Shown piece by piece: positions 6,001 to 9,000 of a DNA stretch of 28,052 bases. How positions within the stretch are numbered: position 1 is the stretch's first letter; every line of letters starts with the position of its first letter. Origin of the DNA: a virus (Duplodnaviria > Heunggongvirae > Uroviricota > Caudoviricetes); the IMG/VR virus record IMGVR_UViG_2534682331_000010. One strand, written 5' to 3'. A program made the position numbers.

Positions 6001-9000
6001 TCTTGCTGTCAGAGCATCAAAAAATGGTCGCTCTGTTAACTCCGAGATCGTCATGATTTTGCAAGCCGCGATTGATGAAGATAGGTCGCCAAAGTCAGTT
6101 GAGTCATTTGCTCAGCAAGAAGCTGACAAATTCAAAGAGGCGCTGCTTGAGACGCTGAAAACCATGTATGGTAAGGATGCAAAATGAATAAAAAACAGTT
6201 TATTAAGTCAACAACGTCAAGCAAGGAAGAGCTAGAGAAGGAGCTAAACTCCCTGAAATATGCTCTGTGCCTGGTTTACTCAAGACTGCCAATGGAAGAT
6301 AAAAACGCCATTTACAATGAAATGATTAGCAGCCTTGATTTTAACGATAGAGACCTAGCATCCCACCTCAACAGCTTCCGCGTCCCTGAGTAATTCTATT
6401 GCGGATTTGCTTCTTACGGTGGTTTAAGCTGGAGAGCTTGGCTTCTGCTTCTGATATTTGCGCATCCAGATCTTTAAGCTCAAGATCTGAAAGTCGCTGG
6501 TCAAGCAGGGTTTGATTCAACTCAATGTTGTTCAGACGTTCTTCTATGGTCATGATTACTCCTTATAAAAAACCCACCTGACGGTGGGTTTTATAATTAG
6601 ATTTCTGGTTTTATTCTTCCAAAAACCTTTTCTATTCCTTTTTCGTATTCTTCTCTTGTCTCGCTCATCGCTGCGACACCAAGAAGCTTACCGATATGCT
6701 GACGCAAAGCCTTGACACCAATTTCAGAAAGGAACAGGTGCAACTTATCAGATTGTTTTCCGTTCTCGTCTCGGCTGGCTCGAATCTGTTCAAGGATTTT
6801 ACCTTTACTCTTTGCTAGCGGAGTGTATATCTGCATGTTGGTTAGTTGCCCAAAACGAATTGGACGTCCTTTCTCTGGCCTGTTCAGGCCGTACAGTCGA
6901 TACCACTCCTCATATAGCTCATCTGGAAATTCCTTTTCATACTGCCTCGCCTCTTCACGAACAAAGGCCTTGAAGGAATCAATAACCTCCTGTACTTCAG
7001 GTCGATATCCTGCAATAGCATAACCAAGTCCTTTAAGCCCTGCTTTCATTGATGCGGTAACAAGTCTTTGGGCAAGGCTGGCAGATTTTGATCTTGAAGG
7101 CGGTAGTGCGCCAGCTCGATCGGCATTAATCATTGCTGTGGCTATATCACCAATAAGGGCAATATCGTAACCGTGAGCCTCATCAGCGAGTGGATTTGGG
7201 GCTGAGTTTGGGACCGGACTTCTCCATTGAAAAATAAGAGGTTTTTTGAATTTTTCTAGCAGAAATGGATCAACAAAATCAGCCATATAATTCGTATTTA
7301 GAAAACGGTCTACATCCCTACCATGCTCACCGATTCCTAGTAATTTAGCCAGACCAGTTTTACTAACTACAACCGTTTTATCATTATCATCAAGTACGTA
7401 ACATTCTGCATCAATGCCGAAATCATCAATGAAGTTACCCTTTCTGATCGCTCTTAGTGGCTTACCTTCCCATCGTTTTGCCGCTGCTTTCTTTGCTATT
7501 TCAGAACGCTGCTCTTTAGTCAGCGACTTTGCGCGAGCGATACCGCCCTTAGCTTTCCCTTCGCCACTTTTCTTTTCAGTCATAATGCAAGCACCTTTGT
7601 TGTGATGTATGCTTGCATTATATGCACTGTACACACATACAAGCAAGCATAAAACCAAAACAAAATGCTTGCATTACAACCGCGCTACTCCAACTACACA
7701 TTATCATCTGGTATCCTGCACAAAACTAAGGAGGTTGGTGTGAAGCAATTTCTTGCTGCTATGTTCTTATTCATATCTTTTGGGGCTACAGCAGAGTGCT
7801 GGGTCGTTGGAGATATGCGCGGAATAAGCTATTCAGAACGAAATAATTTCCATCCTGAAGAAGATGGTTTTAGTGGAACATTCATCATTAAGACAAGCGG
7901 TGAAGATGCTAGCATCACATATTCTGGGACAGATGCGGGCGGCATGGCTTACAAAGTATTGTCTAAAAACTCCATCATAGGAATCGGCGCGAATGGCGAA
8001 ACTCAACGCGTTATCGACTCATGGGTAATACATCCTACTGGAACAGTTTTAATGTCAAAAACCATTTCCGGTTATGGAAATATGGATTCAACCAAAGCTT
8101 TTGTTGGAAAAGTAAAAAGAAAATGTTAGCGATTGAATCCAATTTCCCATACGTTACTGCTGTGTTGCCTCAGTGGCAAGCAGCGGCCTGATGGCATTCG
8201 CAGCGTTATTCAGCGCTCTTTCATAGGCTGGCGTTCCAGCTTTAGTGTTTGCCAGACGTAAGAGAGCATTCCTTGCTGCTTTGGACTCATACAAGCGCAT
8301 GATTGCACCGAAACCAGCCTCAAGTCCCAGTGATACACCAAGGGTTGCAGTTGCGCCAATCGTTCTAATCCTGTTAGCTTGCGATTGTCCTGTCTGTGTT
8401 ACTACATTTGCGGCGTCCGACCTTGCTGTTTGCTGTAGAACTTCATGAAGAGCATCAAGCTCTTTCATGTGTCTCCCACTGAATATCGTGTTATAGATCT
8501 GACCGTCAGATTGCGACTTCAACTTATTTAACTCGGTAAGAAATTTTGTTGGCGAGTCTCCTGCTTTTTCTGCAATCTTGCTGATATAAGCAGCACGCAT
8601 AGCGTTCTTTCCATCTTCACTAAGAGCTGGCCATATCCTCTTAATATCTGATGGTTTTCTGCTGAATACAACGCTGTTTATTAGCTCTGGAGTAAACTCT
8701 TTTTTAGCTTTGTTGAGATTATTCGCAATCCTTTTATTAAGAACCTTATTGAAGACGTTGGAGTAGTCAGAGTTTGCTTTGACGTATCTGGCGGCCTCTC
8801 CAGCCCCCAAATACCGCGCTGCGTTATTCCTCAAATCCGCCCCCATTGCCCTCTCCACGGCATCAGTTGCGGCTTTCGCGCTATTAGGAAAAACCATGGC
8901 ATCTCCCTGAATACTTTCCCTCAAGGCTGACCGCAACTCTCTCAATAGACCAAAATCTATATCTGGTTTAGCAAGTTCTTCTCGCAAATCGGATAACCCG

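What the first reader, a model, noticed from the sequence alone, without database searches (positions are those of the whole stretch)
7585..7674. Four copies of ATGCTTGCAT in two inverted pairs in the divergent control region
The motif occurs twice forward and twice reversed with a regular 24-bp centre spacing inside each pair. One copy overlaps the TATAAT of the 328-aa gene and another abuts its start codon. This looks like a dedicated operator array for a dimeric regulator, implying the module is switched rather than constitutive.
Basis: seen in the sequence. Interest (0 to 1): 0.55.

Follow-up and report, generated by a model that had tools for sequence, protein, structure and literature searches.

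The report
Conserved four-box operator of P63C gene
The four short repeats are real and form a promoter-embedded control site that accompanies one gene family (P63C-domain proteins) from this P22-like prophage to jumping genes in distant bacterial phyla, so the gene most probably switches itself down by binding its own promoter.

Summary
Four 10-bp boxes lie at 7585-7594, 7609-7618, 7641-7650 and 7665-7674: two exact, two with one mismatch, as two inverted pairs with centre spacings of 24, 32 and 24 bp.

The array is more than a local curiosity. The same layout, TGCAAGCA-N15-TGCTTGCA-N23-TGCAAGCA-N16-TGCTTGCA(TG), sits directly 5' of homologues of the 328-aa P63C-domain gene in 97 distinct arrays. 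These come from enterobacterial prophages and from Acidobacteriota, Myxococcota, Firmicutes and Alpha-, Beta- and Gammaproteobacteria.

- Box positions carry 1.5-2.0 bits; spacers carry 0.19 bits.
- The -35 hexamer lies inside box O3, the -10 ends on the first base of O2, and the Shine-Dalgarno sequence and ATG flank or overlap O1.
- Departures from the box consensus are not compensated (45 broken, 5 compensated). Selection therefore acts on the sequence, not on a hairpin.
- The 8-mers occur only at chance density elsewhere.
- No other gene travels with the array in phages, and the 328-aa protein is the only one in the window with the conserved basic N-terminal motif.

Best reading (inferred, about 0.6): negative autoregulation by the P63C protein. 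Mnt, Arc and CI are not supported.

In other phyla the cassette is a passenger of IS1-family elements, where O4 and O3 are back-to-back -35 boxes for the transposase gene and the P63C gene. No binding experiment exists.

The parts
7585..7594 (-). Box O1 (gene sense GTGCTTGCAT; 8-mer core 7586-7593). It lies between the Shine-Dalgarno sequence and the start codon.
   Evidence: The equivalent position in 72 representative arrays carries 1.5-2.0 bits. In 32 of the 72 the ATG shares its A with the last base of this box.
7609..7618 (-). Box O2 (gene sense ATGCAAGCAT; core 7610-7617). It overlaps the last bases of the -10 and covers the predicted transcription start (about 7610).
   Evidence: The transcription start is inferred from the -10 position and has not been mapped.
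7641..7650 (-). Box O3 (gene sense ATGCTTGCTT, one mismatch). It contains the -35 hexamer.
   Evidence: In the 72 representatives the hexamer at O3+3 is TTGCAT (39), TTGCTT (15) or TTGCAA (13).
7665..7674 (-). Box O4 (gene sense ATGCAAGCAT). It is the distal box, centred near -59.5 of the P63C promoter. In IS1-type elements its reverse strand supplies the -35 of the transposase promoter.
7617..7622 (-). -10 hexamer TATAAT of the 328-aa gene promoter.
   Evidence: Read from the sequence. The family consensus is TAnnAT (T 76%, A 83%, A 85%, T 94%) and always ends on the first T of O2.
7641..7646 (-). -35 hexamer TTGCTT, 18 bp upstream of the -10.
   Evidence: Read from the sequence. The O3-to-O2 start-to-start distance is 31-32 bp in 86 of 97 arrays, which gives a 17/18-bp spacer. 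It matches TTGACA at only 3 of 6 positions, and the consensus scan did not call it.
7594..7598 (-). Shine-Dalgarno sequence AAAGG, directly 5' of O1.
   Evidence: consensus AGG(G/A) in front of O1; GGAGGA in many phyla.
6597..7583 (-). 328-aa gene encoding a P63C-domain protein, the proposed autoregulator.
   Evidence: Pfam PF10546 at 52.3 bits against a cutoff of 26.1, and phrog_2384. At least 1422 homologues. AF2 model with pLDDT 72. Weak Bro-N/KilA-like and Mx8 p63 fold matches.
7470..7559 (-). Codons 9-38, the basic N-terminal motif GKAKGGIARAKSLTKEQRSEIAKKAAAKRW. It is the candidate box-reading module.
   Evidence: R17, R26, A30, A34, R37 and W38 are invariant. It is the only such motif encoded in the window. 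Homologues without it lack the array. The same motif ends the small protein of the IS elements.
6565..7708 (.). Approximate extent of the portable cassette (array plus gene), as shared with other P22-like phages.
   Evidence: The match to phage vB_EcoP-611R6 spans window 6565-7742. In other phages a terminator ends 10-16 nt before O4.
7709..7742 (+). P22 sieA-type 5' UTR, Shine-Dalgarno sequence and GTG of the neighbouring + strand gene. It marks the boundary and is not part of the cassette.
   Evidence: 100% identical to the P22 sieA upstream region.

Best explanation
The four boxes are operator half-sites built into the promoter and translation start of the 328-aa P63C-domain gene.

In gene sense the order is:
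- O4 (TGCAAGCA), 16 nt
- O3 (TGCTTGCt, holding the -35 TTGCTT), 18-nt promoter spacer
- TATAAT, whose last T is the first base of O2 (TGCAAGCA, covering the -10/+1)
- 16 nt holding the Shine-Dalgarno sequence
- O1 (TGCTTGCA), one base, ATG

The gene's own product, probably as a two-fold symmetric oligomer, binds the inverted pairs O4/O3 and O2/O1. It may read the boxes through its conserved basic N-terminal motif, or through the Bro-N-like domain behind it. Binding would occlude RNA polymerase, giving negative autoregulation. Array plus gene would then be a self-contained, self-limiting expression cassette.

Shown:
- the layout
- its conservation with the gene across phyla
- selection on sequence rather than on pairing
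- absence of other sites
- absence of a co-travelling regulator in phages

Inferred:
- that a protein binds
- that it is the P63C protein
- that the effect is repression
- the transcription start
For: (1) The array accompanies the gene. Homologues at 51-100% identity in 79 viral loci and at 41-73% identity in genomes of many phyla carry it. There are 97 distinct arrays, 35 of them with no mismatch in 32 core positions.

(2) Boxes carry 1.5-2.0 bits per position against 0.19 bits in spacers, across 72 representatives whose spacers are under 70% identical.

(3) Spacing is constrained: 22-25, 31-32 and 23-25 bp. The -35 lies inside O3, a TAnnAT -10 ends on O2, and the Shine-Dalgarno sequence and ATG sit at O1.

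(4) There is no covariation inside the boxes: 45 changes break the pair, 9 leave only G:T, and 5 are compensated.

(5) The array is dedicated. Exact 8-mers occur at 11.8 per kb in the array zone against 0.029 per kb elsewhere, which is chance level. Of 120 box pairs sampled from viral contigs, 77 lie beside a P63C homologue. All 12 loci listed with two pattern matches (out of 80 loci listed) are in that group. Most of the remaining 43 are single pairs inside ORFs.

(6) No neighbouring gene family is shared by the phage and transposon contexts. Loci without arc, mnt or CI keep the array.

(7) The 328-aa protein is the only product in the window with the KGGxARA...ARW motif. The motif is among the most conserved parts of the family.

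(8) Four homologues that lack the motif (L139, L141, L145, L155) lack the array, and lineages with altered N-termini have altered boxes.

(9) Fold matches, though weak, cluster on Bro-N/KilA-type DNA-binding proteins and Mx8 p63.
Against: - There is no binding, footprint, transcription-start or expression data.
- The -35 matches the consensus at only 3 of 6 positions, and the simple promoter scan called nothing.
- The N-terminal motif lies physically next to the array. Their joint presence, absence or variation could therefore be plain linkage.
- Motif identity between operator classes (0.55) is hardly lower than within class I (0.59), so no clear specificity-determining covariation was found.
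- The motif is not a recognised DNA-binding domain (no Pfam or NCBIfam hit), and AF2 models it with low confidence.
- Centre spacing of 23-24 bp within a pair is about 2.3 helical turns, which is awkward for a rigid dimer.
- The region also has strong hairpin potential (z = -6.2) and a small excess of spacer complementarity that this model does not explain.
Confidence: 0.6

Rival explanations
1. The boxes are an operator array, but the binder is another protein. Candidates are a host factor (for example a MarR/SlyA-type protein, whose site TTAGCAAGCTAA shares the GCAAGC core; this is recalled from memory). In the transposon context the candidates are the small KGG...ARW protein or the IS1-type transposase.
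For: - The IS elements encode a second protein ending in the same motif as the P63C N-terminus. They also encode a helix-turn-helix transposase next to the array.
- The GCAAGC core resembles the SlyA consensus (memory only, not tested).
- No experiment links the P63C protein to DNA.
Against: - Enterobacterial phage cassettes keep all four boxes although they carry neither the transposase nor the small protein.
- A host-specific factor cannot explain identical 8-mers in Firmicutes, Acidobacteriota, Myxococcota and Proteobacteria.
- The bases flanking the GCAAGC core differ from the SlyA site.
Confidence: 0.15
2. The array works mainly as nucleic-acid secondary structure. One form is a long fold-back (O4:O1, O3:O2) in transcripts that read in from outside. 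It would hide the Shine-Dalgarno sequence and the ATG, like the protection from outside transcription known for IS10. Another form is a cruciform or hairpin signal.
For: - The 100-nt region folds at -44.6 kcal/mol, z = -6.2, and no shuffle matches it.
- The O4-O3 and O2-O1 spacers of the same locus are slightly more complementary than controls: 0.352 against 0.296-0.300, with 0 of 2000 and 0 of 5000 permutations reaching the observed value.
- The outer flanks of O3 and O2 co-vary (z = 3.3).
- The cassette has a transposon origin, where such insulation is known.
Against: - The boxes keep an exact sequence across phyla instead of co-varying (5 compensated against 45 broken).
- The conserved -10 places the start inside O2, so the cassette's own mRNA lacks O4, O3 and most of O2.
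- No Rfam family matches. Only far sub-threshold microRNA-precursor hairpin models appear.
- The spacer effect is less than one extra pair per spacer.
Confidence: 0.1
3. No regulator exists. The boxes are promoter parts (each holds a TTGCA -35-like core) or relics of a duplicated palindrome that hitch-hike with the gene.
For: - O3 supplies the -35. In IS elements O4 supplies the -35 of the transposase promoter.
- Each box contains TTGCA on one strand.
Against: - O2 and O1 have no promoter role in that orientation, yet they are as conserved as O3.
- The TGC preceding TTGCA is 98-99% conserved, which a -35 does not need.
- O4 is retained in phages where the transposase promoter has been lost.
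- Spacers have diverged to 0.19 bits, so the boxes are under selection rather than recent relics.
Confidence: 0.05
4. The boxes are recombination or transposition sites that mobilise the cassette.
For: - The cassette boundary in phages lies within about 10-16 nt of O4.
- The cassette occurs in many unrelated contexts.
Against: - No boxes occur at the other end of the cassette or anywhere else in the loci.
- The IS elements have their own unrelated terminal inverted repeats (GGTAGTG...) and 8-bp target duplications.
- The protein has no recognisable recombinase domain.
Confidence: 0.04

Closest known systems
C-box operators of restriction-modification controller (C) proteins, e.g. C.PvuII and C.AhdI (from established knowledge, not tested here)
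   Same: Two adjacent inverted pairs (four half-sites) lie immediately upstream of the regulator's own gene and overlap its promoter. The leader is very short, and the unit forms a portable autoregulated module on mobile DNA.
   Different: C proteins are about 80-aa XRE-type helix-turn-helix proteins, and their boxes (GACT...AGTC type) are packed into about 35 bp. Here the gene product is a 328-aa P63C/Bro-N-like protein with no helix-turn-helix hit. The boxes are TGCAAGCA and the array spans 90 bp.
Arc and Mnt operators of the P22 immI region (the neighbours in this window)
   Same: They lie in the same genomic neighbourhood. They are small symmetric operators overlapping divergent promoters and bound by oligomers of dimers.
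   Different: The sequences differ. No box lies in the arc-mnt intergenic region 5861-5938. The array occurs without arc or mnt in most loci.
IS-encoded control of transposase promoters (IS1 InsA binding the terminal repeats; IS10 fold-back inhibition), from established knowledge
   Same: In other phyla the array sits in IS1-family elements. O4 holds the -35 of the transposase promoter, so a binder would also limit transposase.
   Different: InsA binds the terminal inverted repeats. Here the sites are internal and unrelated to the repeats (GGTAGTG...). They are shared with a passenger gene and persist in phages without any transposase.
SlyA/RovA (MarR-family) site TTAGCAAGCTAA (recalled from memory)
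   Same: It shares the GCAAGC core in a near-palindromic 10-12-mer.
   Different: The flanking bases differ (AT/AT against TA/TA). The array is identical in phyla that have no SlyA. It is a resemblance only and was not tested.
Bro-N / KilA-N / P63C domain proteins of DNA viruses (the Pfam P63C family is named after Myxococcus phage Mx8 p63)
   Same: The protein belongs to PF10546. Its beta-rich domain gives weak fold matches to Bro-N, KilA and Mx8 p63 models. Proteins of this group are generally taken to be DNA-binding regulators.
   Different: I found no paper reporting a target site or regulatory function for a P63C protein. No Bro-N Pfam hit was found.

Membership tests
Sigma-70-type promoter with embedded operators | -10 hexamer TAnnnT at a fixed place upstream of the gene | tested here: met
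   TATAAT is at 7622-7617. TAnnAT ends on the first T of O2 in 72 representative arrays (T 76%, A 83%, A 85%, T 94%).
Sigma-70-type promoter with embedded operators | -35 hexamer close to TTGACA, 16-18 bp upstream | tested here: inconclusive
   TTGCTT (family TTGCAT) has a 17/18-bp spacer but matches at only 3 of 6 positions. The consensus scan found no promoter in 7400-7900.
Sigma-70-type promoter with embedded operators | Mapped transcription start and protein occupancy | not testable with these tools
   Needs 5' RACE or dRNA-seq, and footprinting.
Autoregulatory operator (bound by the product of the adjacent gene) | Site and gene co-inherited irrespective of genomic context; no other co-inherited regulator | tested here: met
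Autoregulatory operator (bound by the product of the adjacent gene) | Changes in the DNA-binding part of the protein parallel changes in the site | tested here: inconclusive
   Presence and absence agree, and variant classes exist. No class-specific divergence of the motif was seen (0.55 against 0.59 identity), and linkage confounds the test.
P22 Arc/Mnt ribbon-helix-helix operators | Operator in the arc-mnt/ant control region, with dependence on arc or mnt | tested here: not met
   There is no box in 5861-5938. The array is present in loci with no arc or mnt.
Restriction-modification controller C-boxes | XRE-type helix-turn-helix C protein encoded directly downstream | tested here: not met
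   Pfam finds only P63C in the 328-aa protein, and nothing in its first 158 residues.
Structured RNA element (Rfam family or conserved hairpin) | Match to a curated family at its gathering score | tested here: not met
   Only eukaryotic microRNA-precursor models at 17-30 bits against gathering scores of 79-119.
Structured RNA element (Rfam family or conserved hairpin) | Compensatory base changes that keep the pairs | tested here: not met
   Within the boxes, 5 changes are compensated against 45 broken. A weak excess of complementarity is seen in the spacers only.
IS1-family terminal inverted repeats / transposase sites | Located at the element ends with the GG...TG-type terminal sequence | tested here: not met
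   The repeats GGTAGTG... lie about 0.9-1.3 kb from the array and are unrelated to the boxes. The window holds no transposase.
P63C domain proteins (PF10546), for the adjacent gene | Pfam model above the gathering score | tested here: met
   52.3 bits against 26.1, residues 205-292.
Bro-N / KilA-N DNA-binding domain, for residues ~43-140 | Sequence or fold match to the domain | tested here: inconclusive

The most novel reading that the evidence does not exclude
The array plus P63C gene is an ancient, self-contained autoregulated cassette that works unchanged in many bacterial phyla. Promoter, operators, ribosome site and start codon are all interleaved with four copies of one 8-mer.

It would have arisen as the control module of an IS1-family transposon. 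There one binder shuts off both the transposase promoter and its own promoter through back-to-back -35 boxes. Temperate phages would later have captured it.

This motif is also carried by a very abundant family of small proteins, some of which databases label 'histone H1'.
Probability: 0.3. Interest if true: 0.75.

Novelty: new member of a known kind. Interest (0 to 1): 0.6.

Why it matters
P63C-domain proteins are common in prophages and, as found here, in IS1-family transposons of many phyla. I found no paper that reports a function or a DNA target for them.

An invariant 8-bp site tied to the gene gives a concrete, cheap experiment: a gel shift or footprint, plus a reporter fusion. It would assign a first activity to the family.

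The result also shows how a phage accessory gene next to the P22 sieA and immI genes may be kept at a set level in lysogens. If the transposon reading holds, it would describe a new way of coupling transposase expression to a passenger gene.

The cassette may also be useful as a compact, possibly host-independent, self-limiting expression unit.

Tried and rejected
- **Consensus promoter and terminator scans** of 7400-7900 and 6150-6750 called no promoter and no terminator relevant to the cassette. The promoter is inferred from comparative position instead.
- **Pfam and NCBIfam** found nothing in the N-terminal 158 residues or in the small motif protein.
- **Literature searches** found nothing on function or target site. 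The terms used were P63C, P63C domain plus phage, Mx8 p63/KilA-N/Bro-N, the box sequences, ISMhu11, and IS1 family plus passenger gene. The P22 SieA paper (PMC10883804) only confirms that PsieA is putative and lies within 85 bp of sieA.
- **Specificity covariation** between the N-terminal motif and the operator class showed no clear signal.
- **Other proteins with the motif** next to box pairs in viral contigs: none were found.
- **tRNA** next to the L048/L054-type cassettes: none was found by ARAGORN.
- **Rejected binders and roles:** Mnt, Arc or CI as binder; a host-specific factor as binder; a pure hairpin; recombination sites. Reasons are given under the rival explanations.
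Full report
**1. The observation**

Window 7580-7680 reads tcat-a-ATGCAAGCAC-ctttgttgtgatgt-ATGCTTGCAT-tatatgcactgtacacacatac-AAGCAAGCAT-aaaaccaaaacaaa-ATGCTTGCAT. A pattern search finds two exact copies of ATGCTTGCAT on the + strand (7609, 7665). It also finds two one-mismatch copies on the - strand (7585, 7641). Centre spacings are 24, 32 and 24 bp.

Across the whole window, the number of sites with at most one mismatch is not unusual: 7 against 4.3 expected, or 9 against 7.2 for ATGCWWGCAT. The exact 8-mer cores, however, occur nowhere else in the 28 kb. A four-site cluster within 100 bp appeared in only 2 of 3000 dinucleotide shuffles.

**2. The surroundings**

The window is the immI/sieA region of a P22-like (Lederbergvirus) prophage, read on the - strand.

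| Feature | Coordinates | Strand | Evidence |
|---|---|---|---|
| Tailspike | 2475-4298 | - | (flanking-gene names from the annotation of related phages and prophages) |
| Split ant | 4509-5261 and 5280-5438 | - | |
| arc | 5672-5860 | - | |
| mnt-like gene | 5939-6187 | + | |
| 328-aa gene (Pfam P63C domain, 52.3 bits against cutoff 26.1) | 6597-7583 | - | |
| 129-aa secreted-looking protein in the sieA slot | 7740-8129 | + | |
| DNA-ejection genes | from 8154 | - | (names as above) |

Window 7709-7742 is identical to the 5' UTR and ribosome site of P22 sieA.

In gene sense, the 328-aa gene is preceded by, in order:
- TTGCTT (7646-7641)
- 18 nt
- TATAAT (7622-7617)
- box O2
- AAAGG
- box O1
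- one base
- ATG

So one box holds the -35, one abuts the -10 and covers the expected start, and one lies between the ribosome site and the start codon.

**3. Which gene the array belongs to**

In E. coli phage vB_EcoP-611R6 the 328-aa gene and the intergenic region are about 90% identical to the window. All four boxes are intact, and the four substitutions in the 90-bp array all fall in the spacers. The + strand gene there is a different one.

Phage Emek has the window's + strand gene but no P63C gene and no boxes.

Among P22-like prophages many different genes follow the shared sieA-type ribosome site. The array stays with the P63C gene. In other enterobacterial phages the cassette follows a co-directional gene and its terminator, which ends 10-16 nt before O4. 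The array is therefore part of the leftward cassette. It is not a shared control region of the two genes in this window.

**4. Comparative evidence**

A scan of viral contigs gave 79 loci with homologues at 51-100% identity. A scan of one genome per species gave 80 loci at 41-73% identity. These include:
- Klebsiella, Yersinia, Rahnella and Pseudomonas
- Burkholderiales and Gallionellaceae
- Alphaproteobacteria
- Myxococcota and Syntrophaceae
- Acidobacteriota and Abditibacteriaceae
- Oscillospiraceae and Heliobacteriaceae

In most of them the same four boxes sit directly 5' of the start codon. There are 97 distinct arrays, 35 of them without a single mismatch in the 32 core positions.

Start-to-start distances are 22-25 bp (O4-O3), 31-32 bp in 86 of 97 (O3-O2) and 23-25 bp (O2-O1).

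In 72 representatives whose spacers are under 70% identical:
- box positions carry 1.5-2.0 bits and spacers 0.19 bits
- the hexamer ending on the first T of O2 is TAnnAT
- the hexamer inside O3 is TTGCAT, TTGCTT or TTGCAA
- a purine-rich ribosome site precedes O1
- in 32 cases the A of the ATG is the last base of O1

Exact 8-mers occur at 11.8 per kb in the array zone. Elsewhere in about 960 kb of these loci they occur at 0.029 per kb, which is the chance rate.

A blind scan of viral contigs for TGCAAGCA-N13-17-TGCTTGCA returned 120 loci. Of these, 77 lie beside a P63C homologue. All 12 loci listed with two pattern matches (out of the 80 loci listed) are in that group. Most of the other 43 are single pairs inside long ORFs, as chance predicts, and two are arrays cut by contig ends.

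**5. Sequence reading or hairpin?**

Each pair, and the whole array, is self-complementary. The 100-nt region folds at -44.6 kcal/mol, z = -6.2. But where a box departs from consensus, the partner arm is not changed to match: 45 positions break the pair, 9 leave only G:T and 5 are compensated. The same 8-mer is kept in all four places and in all phyla.

The orientation of the asymmetric centre (AA in O4/O2, TT in O3/O1) is kept in 88-99% of arrays. Each box is therefore read as an oriented half-site.

The conserved -10 places the start inside O2, so the cassette's own mRNA would lack the 5' arm. Rfam has no matching family. This argues for recognition of double-stranded DNA by a protein.

One loose end remains. 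The two outer spacers of a locus are slightly more complementary than controls: 0.352 against 0.296-0.300, with no permutation reaching the observed value. The signal is concentrated in the outer flanks of O3 and O2 (z = 3.3). Three readings are possible:
- an extended dyad operator (O3 and O2 are three helical turns apart)
- exchange between the two arms
- a secondary role in folding back read-through transcripts

It is not explained.

**6. Who binds?**

No neighbouring gene family is common to the phage and non-phage contexts. Arc, Mnt and CI are absent from most loci, and the arc-mnt region of the window has no box. A host factor would have to be the same in Firmicutes and Acidobacteriota. 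That leaves the gene's own product.

Its N-terminus, GKAKGG-IARA-KSLT-KEQRSEIAKKAAAKRW, is among the most conserved parts of the family. R17, R26, A30, A34, R37 and W38 are invariant in 49 sequences. It is the only such motif encoded in the window.

Homologues that lack it (L139, L141, L145, L155) have no array. Lineages with altered N-termini have altered boxes:
- an Acidobacteriota group uses TATACTTGCyCGrG / CTCGGGCAAGTATA
- three loci use TGCTAAGCA and TGTCAAGCA variants

This agreement is weakened by physical linkage. I also found no class-specific divergence of the motif.

The AF2 model (pLDDT 72) shows three parts:
- a disordered tip followed by a helix at residues 23-37
- a well-modelled beta-rich domain at residues 43-140
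- a helical C-terminal half holding P63C

Fold searches give only weak hits. In the viral library these cluster on Bro-N, KilA and Mx8 p63 models. Either the N-terminal motif or the Bro-N-like domain could therefore read the boxes.

The variable spacing of 22-25 bp within pairs (about 2.3 turns) fits flexibly tethered reading heads better than a rigid dimer. This is inference.

**7. Mechanism proposed**

The product binds O4/O3 and O2/O1. O3 is centred near -35.5 and O2 near -3.5, so occupancy should exclude RNA polymerase. O1, near +20.5, covers the translation start region on the DNA. The result would be negative autoregulation and a steady low level in the lysogen.

The layout, conservation and exclusivity are shown. 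Binding, the identity of the binder, the sign of regulation and the start site are inferred. I put autoregulation at about 0.6. I put 'protein operator array of some binder' at about 0.75, the sum of this model and the first rival.

**8. An unexpected context**

In at least 21 of the genome loci an IS1-family DDE transposase gene lies divergently upstream of the array. It scores 25.5 bits on Pfam DDE_Tnp_IS1 against a cutoff of 24.1. It scores 62 bits on the NCBIfam IS1 model, below the cutoff of 100.

In 23 loci a small convergent gene follows the P63C gene. It encodes 75-100 aa ending in NPAAVALGRLGG-KGGKARA-KLT-E-R-EIAKKAA-ARW, the same motif as the P63C N-terminus.

Terminal inverted repeats beginning GGTAGTG bound elements of 2.3-2.7 kb at L090 1972-4276, L094 2035-4561 and L122 1590-4279. 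Eight-bp target duplications are readable in L090 and L122; the one in L094 is less clear.

In these elements the reverse strand of O4 supplies TTGCAT as a -35. It is followed after 16-17 nt by (T/C)ATAAT, and after 7 more nt by the transposase ATG, giving a leaderless transcript. O4 and O3 are thus back-to-back -35 boxes of divergent promoters. A single binder would control both the transposase and the passenger gene.

The phage cassette in this window keeps O4 although the transposase side is gone. The small-protein family is very large (over 7900 hits, search saturated), has no Pfam domain and is sometimes labelled 'histone H1'.

**9. Comparison with known systems, and novelty**

The closest functional analogue is the C-box arrangement of restriction-modification controller proteins. 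The neighbouring Arc/Mnt operators and transposase-promoter control in IS elements are also similar in logic. Membership in any of these fails on the defining protein family or on the site sequence (see the membership table).

I found no publication on a target site or function for P63C proteins. The kind of element, an autoregulatory operator array, is well known. This protein-site pair, its invariance across phyla and its transposon origin appear to be undescribed.

I rate it a new member of a known kind, with interest of about 0.6.

Noticed in passing
window 4509-5438 (- strand): The antirepressor gene ant is split into two ORFs. ORF 5280-5438 covers P22_AR_N profile positions 2-42. ORF 4509-5261 covers positions 52-114 plus P22_AR_C. 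It is probably a frameshift or a pseudogene.
   Followed up: no
window 7709-7742; L001, L002, L003 and many of L004-L082: The 5' UTR, Shine-Dalgarno sequence and GTG of P22 sieA ('ctaaggaggttggtgtg') are conserved. The gene behind them differs from phage to phage: SieA, a Sf6 gp38-like secreted protein here, membrane proteins elsewhere. The sieA slot looks like a fixed landing pad for exchangeable accessory genes.
   Followed up: partly
L090 1972-4276; L094 2035-4561; L122 1590-4279; about 20 further genome loci: P63C homologues in many phyla are passengers of 2.3-2.7 kb IS1-family elements. The order is transposase (-), four-box array, P63C gene (+), small motif protein (-). Terminal repeats begin GGTAGTG. 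The 8-bp target duplications read CCACTTTG in L090 and AACTTTTT in L122.
   Followed up: partly
L089-L158, 110 nt to the transposase side of O4: The transposase promoter uses TTGCAT on the reverse strand of O4 as its -35. Then come 16-17 nt, (T/C)ATAAT, 7 nt and the ATG, so the transposase mRNA is probably leaderless. A further TCAAGCAT-like box overlaps that -10.
   Followed up: partly
L090 3969-4208, L097 3452-3685 and 21 other loci: A small protein family (75-100 aa) ends in the same KGGxARA...ARW motif as the P63C N-terminus. The search gave more than 7900 database hits and was saturated. There is no Pfam domain, and some members are annotated 'histone H1'.
   Followed up: partly
L102, L104, L108, L109, L114, L116, L120, L121, L124, L151; L088, L136, L156; L092, L117, L128: Variant operator sets occur. 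An Acidobacteriota group uses TATACTTGCyCGrG ... CTCGGGCAAGTATA around an inner repeat GAAGTCAAGA/TCTTGACTTC. Three loci use ATGCTTAGCA, ATGCTTGACA-N10-TGTCAAGCAT and TGCTAAGCATG. Three loci have the standard boxes in a different order.
   Followed up: partly
window 7581-7680; 72 representative arrays: The whole array can fold as one long hairpin (z = -6.2). The two outer spacers of a locus are slightly but significantly complementary, mostly next to O3 and O2. This is unexplained.
   Followed up: partly
window 7906-7915: An isolated perfect palindromic variant, ATGCTAGCAT, lies inside the + strand gene, 232 bp from O4. It is probably chance.
   Followed up: no
L046-L066 (e.g. L048, L054), about 100-200 nt upstream of the P63C start: The cassette follows a sequence with a tRNA T-arm-like GGTTCGAATCC, perhaps an attachment-site remnant. 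ARAGORN finds no tRNA. The L054-type loci and L073 keep only the proximal box pair O2/O1.
   Followed up: partly
L074-L082 versus the window: Prophages whose P63C protein is only about 53% identical to the window's protein carry an upstream array region almost identical to the window's. This suggests recombination that exchanges gene bodies behind a shared promoter/operator segment.
   Followed up: no
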